From IMG/VR virus record IMGVR_UViG_3300025828_000014: a stretch of DNA of 64,000 nt. One strand, written 5' to 3'. A model generated the notes under the pieces. That model saw nothing but the letters and a program-made list of their open reading frames with translations. It ran no database searches and had not been told where the DNA came from. Source of the stretch: a virus. Both the position numbers and the translations under genes were made by a program. Positions 55,164 to 59,540 of the stretch are shown here, in pieces (the stretch's first letter is position 1; every line of letters begins with the position of its first letter).

Positions 55164-55649
55164 TTATTTATCTTCTGCATATATTTGTTTTAACTTTTCA
55201 TCAGCAAACACTTCTTTGCCACCTCTATCCTTGAAACCTAATCCAAGAATAATTTTATCACGTATTTCACAGGTGCTGCTCCAACTCAATGTGTTTGCTG
55301 CTTGAATAACTTTACCTGTTATCACAGCATTACCTAAAGTTGACTCTAACAGCAAAACAATTCGTGGCAATCTACTAGTGTCACTAGTAACTCTACCAAC
55401 TGGCAATGTCCAACTTTCTTTGTATATATTTTTTATCTCTTTTTTACGAGTGATAGTTTCATATTCATATCCTTTAAGCATATCAAGGAGTATGTTTAAA
55501 TCTTTTTCATCAATATGAAACACGCCATCTTCTTCATCACTTGCCCAATTGCGTTCACACTTACCACACTGTCCACTATTAGGTGTTCTCCAACACATTT
55601 GTGGAGTATTTGCTTTTTTTACAATATTTCTTACTAATTCTGTTGCCAT
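55164..55649 (-). CDS. Hypothetical protein (start MATELV at 55649)
   Basis: TAAATA 4 nt before ATG; ORF-track extension to 55703 lies in the hairpin region. Confidence 0.6.
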   Translation of the reverse strand: MATELVRNIVKKANTPQMCWRTPNSGQCGKCERNWASDEEDGVFHIDEKDLNILLDMLKGYEYETITRKKEIKNIYKESWTLPVGRVTSDTSRLPRIVLLLESTLGNAVITGKVIQAANTLSWSSTCEIRDKIILGLGFKDRGGKEVFADEKLKQIYAEDK

Positions 55650-55664
55650 ATTATATTTACTACT

Positions 55665-56035
55665 ATTAAGATGAACTACGTTCATCTGTGTTTTCGTTGT
55701 CACTCAACACATATTTGTTTATCTTAAGTGCGAAGCACTGTAGTTTCATACAGATTAATTGGTCAGACGGAACCTACTAGCGGTTCCATCTTCTCAAAGC
55801 TTCATACGAGTAGCATGGCCGAGATCGGAAGTAGGTATTTGACTATGCTACTGGGCTCTGACCTTTCCCAACCTACGTCGACATCACGCAAAATGCGCTA
55901 TCCCCCGCTTCGTTCCTAGTGCTAAGGGGTTTTCGTAGCATACAGCCTGTTGGACTTCACCAGTATCTGATCACGTGGTTACGTGAAGCTCAAGGTGGAT
56001 CGAACAATTCCGATCAAACAGTGTCCTGATGTGCC
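55665..56035 (-). ncRNA. Unidentified large structured non-coding element (probable RNA)
   Basis: About 50% GC in the core (55801-55980) within AT-rich surroundings; more than 10 helices, several crossing; mismatches read as G-U on the minus strand. Confidence 0.7.
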
Positions 56036-56448
56036 TTTAAATTTTCTCTAAGTATTTTTGAACCACCAACTCGAACGTTTATAATACCATTGTAGTATTC
56101 ATCTGTTTCTAAAACTCTACGTTCAAATTGTTCTCGTGCCTCTAAGTATGACATTTCGCCTCTAGATTTACAAAAGTAAAGTATTTCTCTAGTGAATTTG
56201 TTTTCGCCTAATTTTTCTACGTCTGCTATTAGTTTATCTGATGATCCCCAATAGTCTCGCCAATCTGATTCTTTGTGACCTCTGCGTTTGTTCTTTTTGC
56301 CTTTTAGAGGTGGCTTGGTTGTTTTAAATTTAGCTAGTTTTTTGCCTACATATTTGCGATTGTCTGTTAAATTGGTTATAAGGTAAACGAATCCTTCATA
56401 TTCATCCGATATTTCGGTTATTTCTTTACCTTTGTAAGTCCAATTCAT
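56014..56448 (-). CDS. Stand-alone GIY-YIG endonuclease (DenA/Seg-like)
   Basis: GFVYLITN....KYVGKK..YWGSS..F.REIL..E..YYN. Confidence 0.9.
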   Translation of the reverse strand: MNWTYKGKEITEISDEYEGFVYLITNLTDNRKYVGKKLAKFKTTKPPLKGKKNKRRGHKESDWRDYWGSSDKLIADVEKLGENKFTREILYFCKSRGEMSYLEAREQFERRVLETDEYYNGIINVRVGGSKILRENLKAHQDTV

Positions 56449-56455
56449 ATAATAG

Positions 56456-56698
56456 TTACTTGTTTGTCTTTGCTTCTCGTGCCTTTTCTGGATTATTTTT
56501 TGCTCTGCCGTCTTTTACATGCCTAATATGTTCTTGTAGTATTTCTTCTCGCCTAACATTGCATAGATTGCGTAGTTCAGATAGCTTTTTACGCACCTTC
56601 CTGCGTTTTAATTCTGCAGGACGATGGTTGAATATTTCGTTTAGTTCAAAATATTCAAGCACAGCAAGTATTATTTTATCGTGTGTATCCGAATCCAT
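56456..56698 (-). CDS. Hypothetical basic protein
   Basis: Start overlaps gp46 stop; RKVRKKLSEL..RREEI. Confidence 0.6.
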   Translation of the reverse strand: MDSDTHDKIILAVLEYFELNEIFNHRPAELKRRKVRKKLSELRNLCNVRREEILQEHIRHVKDGRAKNNPEKAREAKTNK

Positions 56699-58476
56699 TA
56701 ATCTACTATGTCAATATCTGTTGCATAACTTGTAAAGCCGTTTTCTTTAACAACTCTTAATACATTATTCACTCTGCCTACTAGTTCATCCTTGTGACTA
56801 ATCAAGAAAACGTTCTTATCACGCTCTCTAGTCATCTTTTTCAGTATGCCTATGCTGTTTTCTACGCCTGCTGTGTCCATTCCGCTATCAATAAGCTCGT
56901 CAATGAACAACAAGTTAATGCCTTGATATAAACTTTCCCAAACATCGCGGAATGCAAAGGAAAGACCGAGTATTAGCCTGTTACGTTCGCCACGTGACAA
57001 GTTATCAAAGTCTAAATCCTGTCCTAGCTGTGTAATTTCTACGTTTAAATCATTTTGGAACACAACTTGATGCGGTAAGCCTATTTTATCTAAGTAGTAA
57101 GTTAGCCTATTGTTTAGATATGCTAAGTTTTGATCAATAATCTTCTTTCTAATAAACGAATCTTTGTTTGTAAGTAACTTCAACAAGAAGTCTTGATGCT
57201 CTTTTACATTGTTTAGTTCGTTAATAGGTGCCCAATTGATCTCTTGTAATGCTGTATTGGTTAAATCGTTAATTTGTGCCTGGTAAGGATCTTCTTCTTG
57301 CTGTTTACTTAGCAAAGATTTCTTCAAATTATCTACATTGTTTCTATGTTCATATGCTTCTTTTACAGTTTCATAAAATGTTGTAGGACGACCGTTGATA
57401 TCACCAATTTTGTTAAGACCTTTAACAACATCATCTAATTTTCCAGCAACTTCTGTCTGATATGCCATAGAATCTTGCAAATCTTTGCTTTTAGTTGCAA
57501 GAATCTCTGCTTTTTTGTCTTCATGTAGTGCTTGTCCACATGTATAACAAGTAGCATCGTCAAGTTCTGCAATATCCTTGGTTGCGTTATCTACACTTTT
57601 GTTTGCTCTCATTAGAGCACTTTCTAATGTGGCTTTTTCTTTGTTAAGTGCAGCAATTGCAGCGTTTAACTCAGTCCAATTTTGCAATTTTTCATGACTA
57701 TCTAATTCTGCATCAATATCTAGTTGTTCTAGCTCTATAATAGCAGACTCTAAACGTTCAATATCGGTATTATGCTTGGCTTTCCATGCACGTTGCGTTT
57801 GTTTTAGATTGTTAATAGTGTTTTCAATGCCTTCGTTGGCTTTTTGTATAGCTTCTATCTTTAATGTTTCTTCTGTAATAGTATCTTTTGTTAATCTGAT
57901 ACTGTCTTTTAATAAATTTGCCTTTTCTGTAAGTATTGTAATACCAAGTAGCTGTTCAATAATAGCTCTTTGGTCATTTGCTCGCATACTTAGGAAAGGT
58001 TCTGTGTATGTATTAAGTGCAACAATGTGTTTGAACATATCATGACTCATATCCAACAAGTCATTGATAGTTTCTTGTGTTTTTCTACTGTCGCCTTGAC
58101 TGTTATCTTCTAATTCATCAAGTTGTTCACTGTCGTTTACGTAAAACTTTAGTATGTTAGGCGATCTACCACGTTCAATGCGGTATTTGTTACCACCTTT
58201 TTCAAAGTTTAGTGTAACCAACATGCCCTTGCTGTTGGTTTTGTTTATCAAGTTGTTACGCTTGATATTTGTTAGTGCTTGGCCGAACAAGGCGTAAGAT
58301 AATCCATTGATTATTGTAGTTTTGCCTGTTCCGTTTCGTGATCCAGTGTCGTCACCTCCTTGATCTAAATTTTCACCAAGCACTAGAGTGAGTTGATCCT
58401 CTTGGAAATCAACTGCTTGGGTAACATTACCCACACTCATAAAGTTTTTTACTGTAAGATCTTTTAATTTAATCAT
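56698..58476 (-). CDS. gp46: Recombination exonuclease ATPase subunit (Rad50/SbcC-like)
   Basis: KNFMSVGN, NGTGKTT, CYTC zinc hook, LSRGE signature, LFIDE, ISH. Confidence 0.96.
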   Translation of the reverse strand: MIKLKDLTVKNFMSVGNVTQAVDFQEDQLTLVLGENLDQGGDDTGSRNGTGKTTIINGLSYALFGQALTNIKRNNLINKTNSKGMLVTLNFEKGGNKYRIERGRSPNILKFYVNDSEQLDELEDNSQGDSRKTQETINDLLDMSHDMFKHIVALNTYTEPFLSMRANDQRAIIEQLLGITILTEKANLLKDSIRLTKDTITEETLKIEAIQKANEGIENTINNLKQTQRAWKAKHNTDIERLESAIIELEQLDIDAELDSHEKLQNWTELNAAIAALNKEKATLESALMRANKSVDNATKDIAELDDATCYTCGQALHEDKKAEILATKSKDLQDSMAYQTEVAGKLDDVVKGLNKIGDINGRPTTFYETVKEAYEHRNNVDNLKKSLLSKQQEEDPYQAQINDLTNTALQEINWAPINELNNVKEHQDFLLKLLTNKDSFIRKKIIDQNLAYLNNRLTYYLDKIGLPHQVVFQNDLNVEITQLGQDLDFDNLSRGERNRLILGLSFAFRDVWESLYQGINLLFIDELIDSGMDTAGVENSIGILKKMTRERDKNVFLISHKDELVGRVNNVLRVVKENGFTSYATDIDIVD

Positions 58477-59486
58477 TCTAAACCGTTGTAAATGTTTAAC
58501 AACAATGCCTTATCAAAGTTGTCACTGTCAATTGCCATAATTTCGTTGCTAACAATTTGATCAACACTTTCAAACTGTGCAATGTCAAGTTCTGTGTTTA
58601 TTTCTTCAAGTTGTTTGTGTGGAATAAGTGTTATTTCACGGCAATCATAATCTCTAATAAATGTTTCTTTAATGAAACTAGCTTCTTCATAACTTACTGG
58701 CAAGTCTAAGGTAACTCTTAGATACATTTTGCTTTTTAGCATTGTATCTTTTTCATCGATCAACTGAGATAGCCTTACAGTTCTATACTTAGGGCAGTCT
58801 AGCCAGTTGATATACTCTGGTTCTGCACCATTCTCACGGTCTAATATCATCATACCGCGGTCATCATCCCAAGCATCTGCATAGTTGTGTGGGAAAGCAT
58901 TACCAATGTAGTGGATCTTGCCTTGCTTCTGACGCTTGTGGAAGTGTCCACTGAACACATACTCTTGATTTACAAAGTGTTCGCTTTTCAGTTCGCCGTG
59001 ATCTGGCATTTGCACCATAGCATTCATGTAAAAACTAGGAAGTTCAAAGTGTCCAAACAGATACTTTGCTTCAATGCTACTCATACGTTTCCATTCGTCA
59101 CCTACTAACCAAGGCACTAATGCAACGTCATCTTCGATATGTATATCTTCAATAACTGTCACACCAGGTATATGTCTTGCAAATTCAGTAGATTTTACGT
59201 CACGTTTATCCTTGTAATACAAATCGTGATTGCCAGCAAACATATAAAACTTGTCAAATGCTGCACCTAGCTTTTCTAAACTGCGTATACCAGAATCCAT
59301 AGTTGTTAAATTTAAGCTGTTTCTGTTGTGATTCCAGTCACCAGTAAACAAGGCTGTTTCACACCCATGTTCTTTTGCAGTTTTGATAAACCAATCTACA
59401 TATTCTTCACAATCTTGGTTATGAACTCGCGAATTACCCTTCAATCCAAAGTGGATATCCGTAAAGACAGCGGCTTTTTTAAACAA
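58473..59486 (-). CDS. gp47: Recombination endonuclease subunit (Mre11/SbcD-like)
   Basis: TDIHFG, GDW, GNHD, GHFE, SGHFH. Confidence 0.96.
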   Translation of the reverse strand: MFKKAAVFTDIHFGLKGNSRVHNQDCEEYVDWFIKTAKEHGCETALFTGDWNHNRNSLNLTTMDSGIRSLEKLGAAFDKFYMFAGNHDLYYKDKRDVKSTEFARHIPGVTVIEDIHIEDDVALVPWLVGDEWKRMSSIEAKYLFGHFELPSFYMNAMVQMPDHGELKSEHFVNQEYVFSGHFHKRQKQGKIHYIGNAFPHNYADAWDDDRGMMILDRENGAEPEYINWLDCPKYRTVRLSQLIDEKDTMLKSKMYLRVTLDLPVSYEEASFIKETFIRDYDCREITLIPHKQLEEINTELDIAQFESVDQIVSNEIMAIDSDNFDKALLLNIYNGLE

Positions 59487-59511: not shown

Positions 59512-59540
59512 AGTATAAAACATTATTTTGAGATTGTCAA
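59512..59540 (-). promoter_or_regulatory. Sigma70-type promoter for gp47-gp46 operon
   Basis: TTGACA-17nt-TATACT. Confidence 0.8.

What the first reader, a model, noticed from the sequence alone, without database searches (positions are those of the whole stretch)
55665..56448. Large pseudoknotted non-coding element starting at the stop codon of a stand-alone GIY-YIG nuclease
Seen: the largest intergenic gap in the window (~365 nt) is GC-rich and almost entirely pairable. Local hairpins (plus coordinates): 55998-56015, 55971-55986, 55886-55898, 55766-55790, 55738-55753. Long-range helices: 55984-55991/55797-55804, 55871-55876/55831-55836, 55867-55870/55852-55855, 55926-55929/55902-55906. Crossing pairs: 55845-55852/55809-55816 (8 bp), 55857-55863/55761-55767 (7 bp), 56008-56015/55823-55830 (8 bp). 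Imperfect pairs are G-U on the minus strand, so the polarity matches the nuclease mRNA. The 144-aa nuclease has a Lys/Arg-rich insert (KPPLKGKKNKRRGHK) but no DNA-recognition domain. Established: nuclease ORFs tied to large structured RNAs (IscB/TnpB omegaRNA, HEARO) can be RNA-guided. Inference: a candidate GIY-YIG ribonucleoprotein, a ribozyme or a replication/recombination RNA at the end of the gp47-gp46 operon. I do not recognise it as a known family.
Basis: partly seen in the sequence, partly recalled or inferred. Interest (0 to 1): 0.85.

Follow-up and report, generated by a model that had tools for sequence, protein, structure and literature searches.

The report
Twin-box phage RNA beside small nuclease
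The gene-free stretch behind a small DNA-cutting enzyme gene of this uncultured marine phage encodes a real, knotted RNA of about 340 bases that is common in marine phages, absent from RNA catalogues, and carries one 7-letter word twice; it does not look like the enzyme's guide, and its job is still unknown.

Summary
Window 55669-56013 (minus strand) is a conserved structured RNA. G-U pairs occur only in the sense of the nuclease gene.

The RNA belongs to a large family: more than 120 IMG/VR contigs share an exact 20-mer, and 72 more carry a second architecture (class II). It matches no Rfam 15 family, tRNA or tmRNA, and I found no paper on it. Earlier agents of this scan found the same family on other DNA ("twin-box RNA").

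Its oddest trait is a 7-nt word after CUC (55801-55807) that recurs after UCU (55745-55751). The two copies are identical in 94 of 96 RNAs, across 13 word variants, with no complementary partner in cis.

The RNA-guided nuclease reading is not supported:
- Adjacency is total in this phage clade, but that clade is one syntenic block (gp46, small ORF, GIY-YIG, RNA).
- The RNA occurs without the nuclease in a small phage contig rated 85% complete.
- A 72%-identical nuclease sits in the complete Melnitz genome, which lacks the RNA.

Best reading: an independent trans-acting phage RNA, with a Seg/I-TevI-type nuclease as its habitual neighbour. The mechanism is inferred, not shown.

The parts
56014..56448 (-). 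Stand-alone GIY-YIG nuclease gene (144 aa, catalytic domain only, K/R-rich beta-hairpin insert)
   Evidence: Pfam PF19835, E 2.5e-34. AlphaFold2 model pLDDT 91.6. Best fold match is the I-TevI catalytic domain: Z 8.5, rmsd 2.6 A over 82 residues; T4 EndoII scores Z 5.5. 92 distinct intact ORFs of about 140-152 aa were found in relatives. Many residues are invariant, including those I align by eye with the GIY, YIG, Glu and Asn positions of I-TevI.
55669..56013 (-). Whole twin-box RNA, class I, from the nuclease stop codon to the terminal hairpin (about 345 nt)
   Evidence: 97% identical in L003 and about 70% identical in L004-8, where the flanking 161-aa protein is only 53% identical. More than 120 IMG/VR loci share an exact 20-mer. 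No Rfam hit and no tRNA or tmRNA.
55998..56015 (-). Hairpin overlapping the stop codon
   Evidence: Present in the sequence. A differently spelled hairpin, AAUCAAG...CUUGAUU, sits at the same place in L216/L217.
55972..55985 (-). 5' domain hairpin H1
   Evidence: Covaries among window-type relatives: CAUGG/CCAUG, CAUAG/CUAUG, GUAGC/GCUAC.
55935..55945 (-). 5' strand of long-range helix H2; pairs with 55843-55851
   Evidence: At least 12 different complementary pair types across the family. Native duplex energy -10.6 kcal/mol against -6.15 for swapped partners, with 6.6% of swaps as good.
55902..55929 (-). Helix H3 (55925-29 with 55902-06) enclosing an 18-nt loop, UAGCACUAGGAACGAAGC, in which GGAACGA is invariant and most other positions nearly so
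   Evidence: 4 of 5 pairs change on both sides. Loop conservation seen.
55884..55900 (-). Variable hairpin H4, the site of insertions of up to about 100 nt in relatives and GNRA-capped in short forms
   Evidence: Alignments.
55852..55884 (-). 33-nt core strand, invariant at 29 of 33 positions and at least 90% conserved at the rest. It carries the 5' strands of H5 (55871-76) and H6 (55857-63) and both strands of H8 (55867-70 with 55852-55).
   Evidence: Invariant and nearly invariant columns in 50 sequences. The 20-mer inside it is exact in more than 120 contigs.
55843..55851 (-). 3' strand of H2
55831..55836 (-). 3' strand of pseudoknot helix H5 (ACCUAC)
   Evidence: 100% of cells paired. Compensatory GCAGGU/ACCUGC in L210-213 and GCAGGU/ACCUGU in L046 and L080.
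55801..55807 (-). Twin box, copy 1 (GUAUGAA, preceded by CUC)
   Evidence: Identical to copy 2 in 94 of 96 unique RNAs. Thirteen word variants over both classes.
55769..55787 (-). Hairpin H7 (GGAACC...GGUUCC)
   Evidence: 99.7% of cells paired, with one compensatory pair and G-U variants. Class II has GCCCG/CGGGC at the same place.
55761..55767 (-). 3' strand of pseudoknot helix H6 (UCUGACC)
   Evidence: 100% paired; six pairs never vary and the end pair alternates G-U and G-C. Class II keeps GGUCA/UGACU.
55745..55751 (-). Twin box, copy 2 (GUAUGAA, preceded by UCU)
55727..55739 (-). Hairpin H9, variable in sequence and length in relatives
   Evidence: relatives carry different hairpins at this place.
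55687..55711 (-). Hairpin H10: covarying stem, tandem G-A pairs, a 2-bp GC clamp and a 4-nt GNNA loop that is GNRA in many relatives
   Evidence: 76 of 80 RNAs have at least 5 of 6 stem pairs, with 24 different strand pairs.
55669..55687 (-). Terminal hairpin, taken as the 3' end of the RNA
   Evidence: Every relative has a stable hairpin here (-5 to -13 kcal/mol). In many relatives a TATAAATA-like word follows it. The terminator scan flags it only in the plus sense.
56456..56698 (-). Small basic ORF (80 aa) between gp46 and the nuclease; part of the conserved gene order
   Evidence: Found by tblastn in 93 loci at 28-99% identity. No Pfam or PHROG family.
59512..59540 (-). Sigma-70-like promoter upstream of gp47 (TTGACA, 17 nt, TATACT); probable start of the transcript that ends in the RNA
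   Evidence: Matches 11 of 12 positions. No promoter-like site lies between the nuclease and the RNA.

Best explanation
What it is (shown). Window 55669-56013, minus strand, is a member of a large uncatalogued family of structured RNAs of marine phages. These RNAs are about 330-450 nt long.
- The fold is built on a 33-nt core strand that is invariant at 29 positions.
- A long-range helix H2 encloses H3, H4 and H8.
- Two further helices, H5 and H6, cross H2 and make a double pseudoknot.
- A 3' domain of three hairpins follows.
- Two 7-nt boxes about 56 nt apart are kept identical to each other while the word itself changes between phages.

How it is made (inferred). It is transcribed as the tail of the gp47-gp46-ORF80-GIY-YIG operon, from the promoter at about 59512-59540, and ends at its own terminal hairpin.

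How it works (inferred, low certainty). It acts in trans and on its own, not as the nuclease's guide. The two boxes are twin recognition words that must both fit one single-copy partner, either a nucleic acid or a co-evolving protein. A change in that partner forces the same change in both boxes.

The nuclease. It is a Seg/I-TevI-type catalytic domain that moves between phage lineages. In this clade it has settled next to the ultra-conserved RNA gene, perhaps using it as a landing or cutting site. That would also explain why RNA alleles are shuffled between otherwise near-identical phages.
For: Structure and polarity.

Family size and absence from catalogues.

Twin boxes:
- Identical in 94 of 96 RNAs.
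- Further word variants in class II, L046 and L210.
- The best covarying partner of each box position is the same position of the other box.
- No 7-nt complement within -900 to +700 nt in 96 loci.
- The gp46 tree needs at least 13 changes of the word, and ACGUGAA and GUAUGAA each arose in distant branches.

Independence from the nuclease:
- The RNA is in a 25.6-kb record rated 85% complete that has no GIY-YIG homologue, upstream of the terminase genes.
- The RNA follows a radical-SAM-like gene in L214.
- The covariance model finds nothing in Melnitz or in two cyanophage genomes that carry nuclease homologues.

Mobility of the nuclease: it is 72% identical to the Melnitz copy, while gp46 has no cultured relative above 48%.

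Mosaic RNA alleles: L119 and L063 have nearly identical gp46 but different RNAs. Class I and class II alternate among phages with gp46 77-85% identical to the window's.

Operon: promoter found.
Against: - No transcript data, so neither the ends of the RNA nor its existence as a stable species is shown.
- No partner for the boxes was found. The complement of the window's word occurs only at scattered, unremarkable coding sites.
- In this clade the nuclease and the RNA are never apart (232 of 233 informative loci; the exception, L046, is a different phage). The nuclease has no DNA-binding domain and is at least as conserved as gp46, so a functional tie in this clade cannot be excluded.
- The phage records that carry the RNA without the nuclease are incomplete (85% at best).
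- The terminal hairpin has no U-tract in the RNA sense.
Confidence: 0.5

Rival explanations
1. Ribonucleoprotein or RNA-guided nuclease. The domain-less GIY-YIG protein binds this RNA, and the RNA, possibly through the twin boxes, supplies target recognition.
For: - The gene pair is adjacent and co-oriented in every informative locus of this clade, across two RNA architectures.
- The RNA starts at the nuclease stop codon.
- The protein is the catalytic domain only, with a nearly invariant K/R-rich insert.
- The nuclease is conserved as well as or better than gp46. In L082 it is 74% identical against 53% for gp46.
- The boxes are short variable words, as seeds would be.
Against: - All linked loci share one gene order, so the linkage counts as one observation.
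- The RNA occurs without the nuclease.
- A 72%-identical nuclease occurs in complete genomes without the RNA.
- There is no hypervariable end segment. Seven nucleotides is very short for a DNA guide.
- No target for the boxes was found.
Confidence: 0.1
2. Ribozyme. The near-invariant unpaired nucleotides and the double pseudoknot form an active site, for example for self-processing of the operon transcript, with the two CUC/UCU-box junctions as paired reaction sites.
For: - A 33-nt core strand invariant at 29 positions, and a loop in which GGAACGA is invariant, both largely unpaired.
- A pseudoknot topology like P3-P7 of group I introns, with an A-rich joiner after H2.
- GNRA-capped peripheral hairpins.
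- Two sites with the same word in the same local context.
Against: No match to any ribozyme family of Rfam, group I and GIR1 included, even at E up to 10 on 400 nt. There are no flanking exons. Nothing shows cleavage or ligation. Identity of two reaction sites is not needed by any known ribozyme.
Confidence: 0.15
3. Cis-acting end of the operon. The element is a 3' UTR that stabilises the mRNA or an attenuator for the genes downstream, with the two boxes as alternative pairing partners of one strand.
For: Same strand as the operon, no promoter of its own, and a terminal hairpin. In attenuators two like segments compete for one complement.
Against: The shared complement is missing. Downstream genes differ from locus to locus and can lie on the other strand. 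In relatives a late-promoter-like word follows the hairpin. The RNA keeps its core in unrelated gene contexts. The conservation is far greater than 3' stabilisers need.
Confidence: 0.07
4. DNA-level or R-loop element. The sequence serves as an origin, priming site or packaging signal, and the boxes are direct-repeat protein sites.
For: It lies beside recombination genes in this clade and beside terminase genes in the small phage. Direct repeats that co-vary are typical of protein-bound DNA sites. An earlier agent of this scan guessed an R-loop primer.
Against: The helices covary with G-U pairs in one sense only, which points to RNA. There is no repeat array, and the boxes are only 7 nt long.
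Confidence: 0.05
5. Group I intron carrying its homing endonuclease ORF.
For: A GIY-YIG ORF next to a pseudoknotted RNA. H2/H6 cross like P3/P7, and the joiner is A-rich.
Against: No RF00028 hit at any threshold used. The element lies between a stop codon and unrelated genes, and downstream genes vary. H8 and H5 have no counterpart in group I introns, and P7 is not followed directly by P3'. The RNA exists without any ORF.
Confidence: 0.02

Closest known systems
Free-standing GIY-YIG homing endonucleases of T4-like phages (Seg proteins) and the I-TevI catalytic domain
   Same: GIY-YIG catalytic fold (Pfam SegE_GIY-YIG; Z 8.5 to I-TevI). It is a phage gene lying between conserved genes and occupies different loci in different phage lineages.
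   Different: It has no linker or DNA-binding domain. It is fixed and strongly conserved in this clade rather than sporadic. It carries a K/R-rich hairpin insert. Homing has not been tested.
Large ornate non-coding RNAs of unknown function often carried by phages (GOLLD, ROOL; my own knowledge of the Breaker-lab literature)
   Same: Several hundred nucleotides, many covarying helices and pseudoknots, highly conserved unpaired nucleotides, phage-borne, found by comparative analysis, function unknown.
   Different: No sequence or structure match (Rfam scans). It is smaller, is not next to tRNA genes here, and has twin boxes that those RNAs are not known to have.
   Same: A small nuclease gene abutting a large structured RNA on the same strand.
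   Different: A different nuclease fold. No transposon ends and no terminal guide segment. The RNA and the nuclease each occur alone. HEARO does not match.
Group I intron core
   Same: Crossing long-range helices (H2/H6, like P3/P7), an A-rich joiner, variable peripheral hairpins that accept insertions, and company of a GIY-YIG gene.
   Different: No exons and no covariance-model match. It has the extra helices H5 and H8, and nothing suggests a G-binding site or splice sites.
Paired nut sites (boxB of nutL and nutR) of lambdoid phages (my own knowledge)
   Same: Two copies of a short RNA element in one phage that are alike within a phage and differ between phages, because both must fit one phage-specific partner.
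   Different: The nut sites are hairpins in two separate transcripts, bound by N protein. Here the words are 7-nt stretches within one RNA and the partner is unknown.
Polynucleobacter-1 RNA motif (Rfam RF01718), named as closest by earlier agents of this scan
   Same: An uncharacterised RNA motif from aquatic metagenomes (table in PMC2864571).
   Different: No hit to RF01718 on the window or on four other family members at E up to 5-10. I see no basis for kinship.

Membership tests
RNA-guided nuclease system (OMEGA/HEARO-like) | The RNA and the nuclease always occur together | tested here: not met
   The RNA occurs without a GIY-YIG homologue in L046 and L207-209 (record rated 85% complete) and in L214. 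The nuclease occurs without the RNA in Melnitz and two cyanophage genomes.
RNA-guided nuclease system (OMEGA/HEARO-like) | A variable guide segment at one end of an otherwise conserved scaffold, matching a target | tested here: not met
   The variable parts are hairpins that covary internally. The only free variable words are the two internal 7-mers, and no complementary site was found.
RNA-guided nuclease system (OMEGA/HEARO-like) | The protein binds the RNA and cleavage depends on it | not testable with these tools
   Needs purified protein and RNA.
Group I intron (Rfam RF00028) | Match to the family covariance model | tested here: not met
   No hit at E up to 1 on 4 kb, up to 10 on 401 nt, or up to 5 on five relatives.
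Group I intron (Rfam RF00028) | Interrupts a gene whose exons join into one reading frame or RNA | tested here: not met
   It lies between the nuclease stop codon and an unrelated ORF. Downstream genes differ among loci.
Seg-type free-standing GIY-YIG homing endonuclease | GIY-YIG catalytic domain with the conserved catalytic residues | tested here: met
   Pfam E 2.5e-34. Fold Z 8.5 to I-TevI. Invariant Y22, Y33, G35, E103/E106 and N120, and nearly invariant R55/R56. The assignment to catalytic roles is by eye.
Seg-type free-standing GIY-YIG homing endonuclease | C-terminal DNA-binding module | tested here: not met
   Only 144 aa, one Pfam domain covering residues 3-123. The model ends in a single helix.
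Seg-type free-standing GIY-YIG homing endonuclease | Sporadic, mobile distribution | tested here: inconclusive
   Fixed within this clade (48 of 48). Yet it sits at other loci in Melnitz and cyanophages, and is far more similar across lineages than gp46 (72% against 48% or less).
tmRNA or tRNA | tRNA-like domain recognised by ARAGORN or Rfam | tested here: not met
   No gene in the whole window. No Rfam hit.
Polynucleobacter-1 motif (RF01718) and any other Rfam 15 family | Match to the covariance model | tested here: not met
   Only chance-level snoRNA-type hits.
Twin-box phage RNA (working name of this scan; no published definition) | Core strand ...GUAGGUUGGGAAAGGUCAGAGCCC... with helices H2, H3, H5, H6 and H8 | tested here: met
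   The model R1 scores the window at 138 bits.
Twin-box phage RNA (working name of this scan; no published definition) | One 7-nt word after CUC, repeated after UCU about 55-70 nt downstream | tested here: met
   GUAUGAA at 55801-07 and 55745-51.

The most novel reading that the evidence does not exclude
The twin boxes are two copies of a programmable 7-nt recognition word. With it the RNA, alone or loaded on the domain-less GIY-YIG protein of this clade, picks a nucleic-acid target. That would be a new kind of RNA-directed system in phages, with the word re-set in both copies whenever the target changes.
Probability: 0.12. Interest if true: 0.9.

Novelty: categorically new. Interest (0 to 1): 0.7.

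Why it matters
Large, elaborately folded RNAs with invariant unpaired cores are rare, and in the past they have turned out to be ribozymes, riboswitches or the hearts of RNA-protein machines. This one sits in several hundred marine phage contigs of at least two phage types and has escaped the catalogues.

Its rule that two 7-nt words stay identical while the word itself drifts is not explained by ordinary base-pair covariation. That rule points to an unknown partner that could be sought directly. It also gives a clean experimental handle: change one box, then both.

For the nuclease, the result is a caution. Perfect gene linkage within one phage clade did not survive a look outside the clade.

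Tried and rejected
- **Rfam:** scans at permissive thresholds on the window and on five relatives gave only chance snoRNA-like hits. ARAGORN found nothing.
- **Cultured phages:** blastn of the element against 50,697 phage records found no match.
- **tmRNA idea:** it came from the Melnitz paper (PMC9004378). That tmRNA lies elsewhere in Melnitz, and this RNA has no tRNA-like domain.
- **Glutamine riboswitch:** GGAAGUAGG and GGAACG words are present, but on opposite strands and in the wrong order, and Rfam gives no hit. Rejected.
- **RNase P-like P4 resemblance:** by eye only, with no model hit. Dropped.
- **Small ORF starting at the AUG inside the boxes:** lengths run from 2 to 55 codons with no conservation, and some word variants lack AUG. 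Rejected.
- **Box-to-box pairing through the CAUG palindrome:** fails for CAUA, CAGA, CAGG and AAUA variants. Rejected as a general rule.
- **Cis partner of the boxes:** none found by mutual information or by complement search.
- **Avoidance or enrichment of the word or its complement in the window:** none.
- **T4 endonuclease II (DenA) orthology of the nuclease:** suggested by the position after nrdB in Melnitz and cyanophages. The fold match is weaker (Z 5.5) than to I-TevI (Z 8.5), so it is left open.
- **H10-like pattern hit in cyanophage S-SRM01:** it lies in a coding region, so it is chance. One class II 20-mer hit (L273) is likewise a chance coding match.
- **Cellular genomes:** the only three hits are phage contigs with gp46, binned into metagenome-assembled genomes. 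They give no host clue.
- **Full structural model:** I did not reach one for the 5' domain or for the stretch between H5 and box 1.
Full report
**The locus**

The window is part of a 97.8-kb IMG/VR virus record. On the minus strand the genes run as follows:
- gp55-like sigma factor
- gp47 (58473-59486)
- gp46 (56698-58476; PHROG 77, SbcC-like)
- an 80-aa basic ORF (56456-56698)
- a 144-aa GIY-YIG ORF (56014-56448; Pfam SegE_GIY-YIG, E 2.5e-34)
- about 363 nt without a conserved ORF
- a 161-aa ORF that starts at 55649

The gap is richer in G+C (45-50%) than its surroundings (about 33-36%). A strong sigma-70-like promoter sits just upstream of gp47. None lies between the nuclease and the gap.

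**Is the element real?**

Folding the single sequence gives only a modest signal (z -2.0 for the minus strand, -1.3 for the plus strand). Comparison settles the question.
- The gap is 97% identical in L003. It is about 70% identical in L004-8, although the flanking 161-aa protein there is only 53% identical.
That gave 96 distinct RNAs.

When partners are slid the figure is 34-49%, and no shuffle out of 500 reaches the observed covariation score.
- H3 changes on both sides at 4 of 5 pairs.
- H5 changes from GUAGGU/ACCUAC to GCAGGU/ACCUGC in L210-213.

It folds at -10.6 kcal/mol against -6.15 for swapped partners.

H10 in the 3' domain covaries as well. The wobble pairs are G-U only in the minus sense, so the structure belongs to a transcript of the nuclease strand.

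H2 encloses H3, H4, H8 and the 5' strands of H5 and H6, whose partners lie downstream. That makes a double pseudoknot.

**What it is not**

- No Rfam 15 family matches the window, a class II member, the L046 type, L214 or L210 at permissive thresholds. That covers group I introns, GIR1, HEARO, RNase P, tmRNA, the glutamine riboswitch and Polynucleobacter-1.
- ARAGORN finds no tRNA or tmRNA.
- No cultured phage record contains it.
- The tmRNA reported for the nearest cultured carrier of the nuclease, phage Melnitz, is a different gene at another place (PMC9004378).
- Two literature searches found nothing on a GIY-YIG-linked or marine-phage RNA of this kind.
- It is not an intron. It lies between a stop codon and genes that differ from locus to locus, sometimes on the other strand.

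**The twin boxes**

The 7 nt after an invariant CUC (box 1, window 55801-07) and the 7 nt after an invariant UCU (box 2, 55745-51) are identical in 94 of 96 RNAs.

The word itself takes 13 forms:
- ACAUGAA, ACAUAAU, ACAUGAU, ACGUGAA, GUAUGAA (this window), ACAUGAG, GCAUAAA, GCAUGAA and ACAUAAA
- GAAUAAU and GAAUGAU in class II
- ACAGAAA
- ACAGGAA

Other findings on the boxes:
- Each box position covaries best with the same position of the other box, and with nothing else.
- No complementary 7-mer lies within -900 to +700 nt in any of 96 loci. The few complements further out are scattered.
- On a gp46 tree the word must change at least 13 times. ACGUGAA and GUAUGAA each turn up in distant branches.
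- The boxes are not start sites of a conserved small ORF.
- The CAUG palindrome cannot explain the non-palindromic variants.

Identity of two words, rather than complementarity, is what one expects if both must fit one single-copy partner: a change in the partner then forces the same change twice. I could not find that partner. This is the main unexplained feature.

**The link to the nuclease**

Seeded on the RNA, 117 of 118 loci have the GIY-YIG gene directly upstream on the same strand. Seeded on a class II 20-mer, 67 of 67 informative loci do. Seeded on gp46, so blind to both, all 48 informative loci have the nuclease. Of these, 31 have the class I RNA, and every long one of the remainder that I inspected (11 loci) has class II.

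That looks like strong linkage, but every one of these loci has the same gene order: gp46, small ORF, nuclease, RNA. It is therefore one observation repeated down a clade.

Outside the clade the pair falls apart.
- **RNA without nuclease.** The RNA, with compensatory H5 changes and its own box word, sits upstream of the terminase genes of a small phage (L046, L207-209). The 25.6-kb record behind L209 is rated 85% complete and has no GIY-YIG homologue. In L214 the RNA follows a protein with a radical-SAM-like cysteine motif.
- **Nuclease without RNA.** The nuclease is 72% identical in the four complete Melnitz genomes, where it follows nrdB. It occurs in hundreds of cyanophage records next to unrelated genes. 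A covariance model of the RNA core scores the window's genome at 138 bits but finds nothing in Melnitz or in two cyanophage genomes.

**The nuclease itself**

- Its model is confident (pLDDT 91.6).
- It superposes best on the I-TevI catalytic domain (Z 8.5). T4 endonuclease II scores lower (Z 5.5).
- The conserved GIY, YIG, Arg, Glu and Asn positions are kept.
- It has no DNA-binding module.
- It is far more similar across phage lineages (72% to Melnitz) than gp46, whose best cultured relatives are jumbo phages at 47-48%. That fits a gene that moves horizontally.

**Mosaicism**

L119 and L063 have almost identical gp46 but clearly different RNA alleles with different box words. Class I and class II RNAs alternate among phages with gp46 77-85% identical to the window's. 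The RNA gene is thus exchanged between related phages. A neighbouring homing-type nuclease would promote exactly that, but this link is inference.

**Verdict**

- **Shown:** a real, large, pseudoknotted RNA of a new family, with the unusual twin-box rule. The same family was reported before by this scan on other DNA.
- **Inferred:** it is the tail of the gp47-gp46 operon transcript. It works in trans and independently of the nuclease. Its boxes are twin recognition words for one partner.
- **Not supported:** It is not fully excluded for this clade, and I give it about 0.1.
- **Other rivals:** ribozyme 0.15, cis-acting operon end 0.07, DNA-level element 0.05, group I intron 0.02.

Noticed in passing
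L140:5951-6450 and 71 further loci (L223-L293): A second architecture of the RNA (class II) sits at the same place behind the same nuclease. It has a different 5' core (...GUAGGGGGAUACAGGUCAACCGCCUCC...) but the same 3' half, and twin boxes GAAUAAU or GAAUGAU. Model R1 detects it only weakly (E 6e-4 to 0.2).
   Followed up: partly
L046:1384-1700 (minus); also L207-L209: The RNA occurs in a small phage of about 30 kb, 0.4-1 kb upstream of the terminase small and large subunit genes, preceded by a 65-aa ORF. The record, rated 85% complete, has no GIY-YIG gene.
   Followed up: partly
window 56456-56698 (minus): An 80-aa Lys/Arg-rich ORF lies between gp46 and the nuclease in 93 loci. It has no known family. 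A small basic protein next to a structured RNA could be an RNA binder.
   Followed up: no
upstream of the nuclease ATG in most relatives (for example L038, L120, L028): The word GGUAAGUA recurs 5-8 nt before the nuclease start codon in many loci. The window has AAGUAACUA. Its meaning is unknown.
   Followed up: no
L119 versus L063: These two contigs have almost identical gp46 but different RNA alleles (different H4 and different box word). That is local mosaicism right beside the nuclease gene.
   Followed up: partly
window 56698-58476 (minus): The best cultured relatives of gp46 are jumbo phages (Sinorhizobium phage Phosso, Pseudomonas phage PA5oct) at only 47-48% identity. Related contigs reach 236 kb, so this may be an uncultured jumbo-phage lineage.
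   Followed up: no
L215, L216, L217: Phage contigs with gp46, the nuclease and the RNA are binned in metagenome-assembled genomes named Crocinitomicaceae and Neomarinimicrobiota. One of the contigs is 335 kb. This is probably mis-binning and not a host signal.
   Followed up: no
window 55669-55739: Another first-stage note read the hairpins here as single-stranded-DNA signals. They are H9, H10 and the terminal hairpin of this RNA, and H10 covaries as an RNA helix.
   Followed up: yes
downstream of the terminal hairpin in many relatives (for example L063, L087, L051): A T4-late-promoter-like TATAAATA word follows the RNA. This suggests that the next gene has its own late promoter.
   Followed up: no
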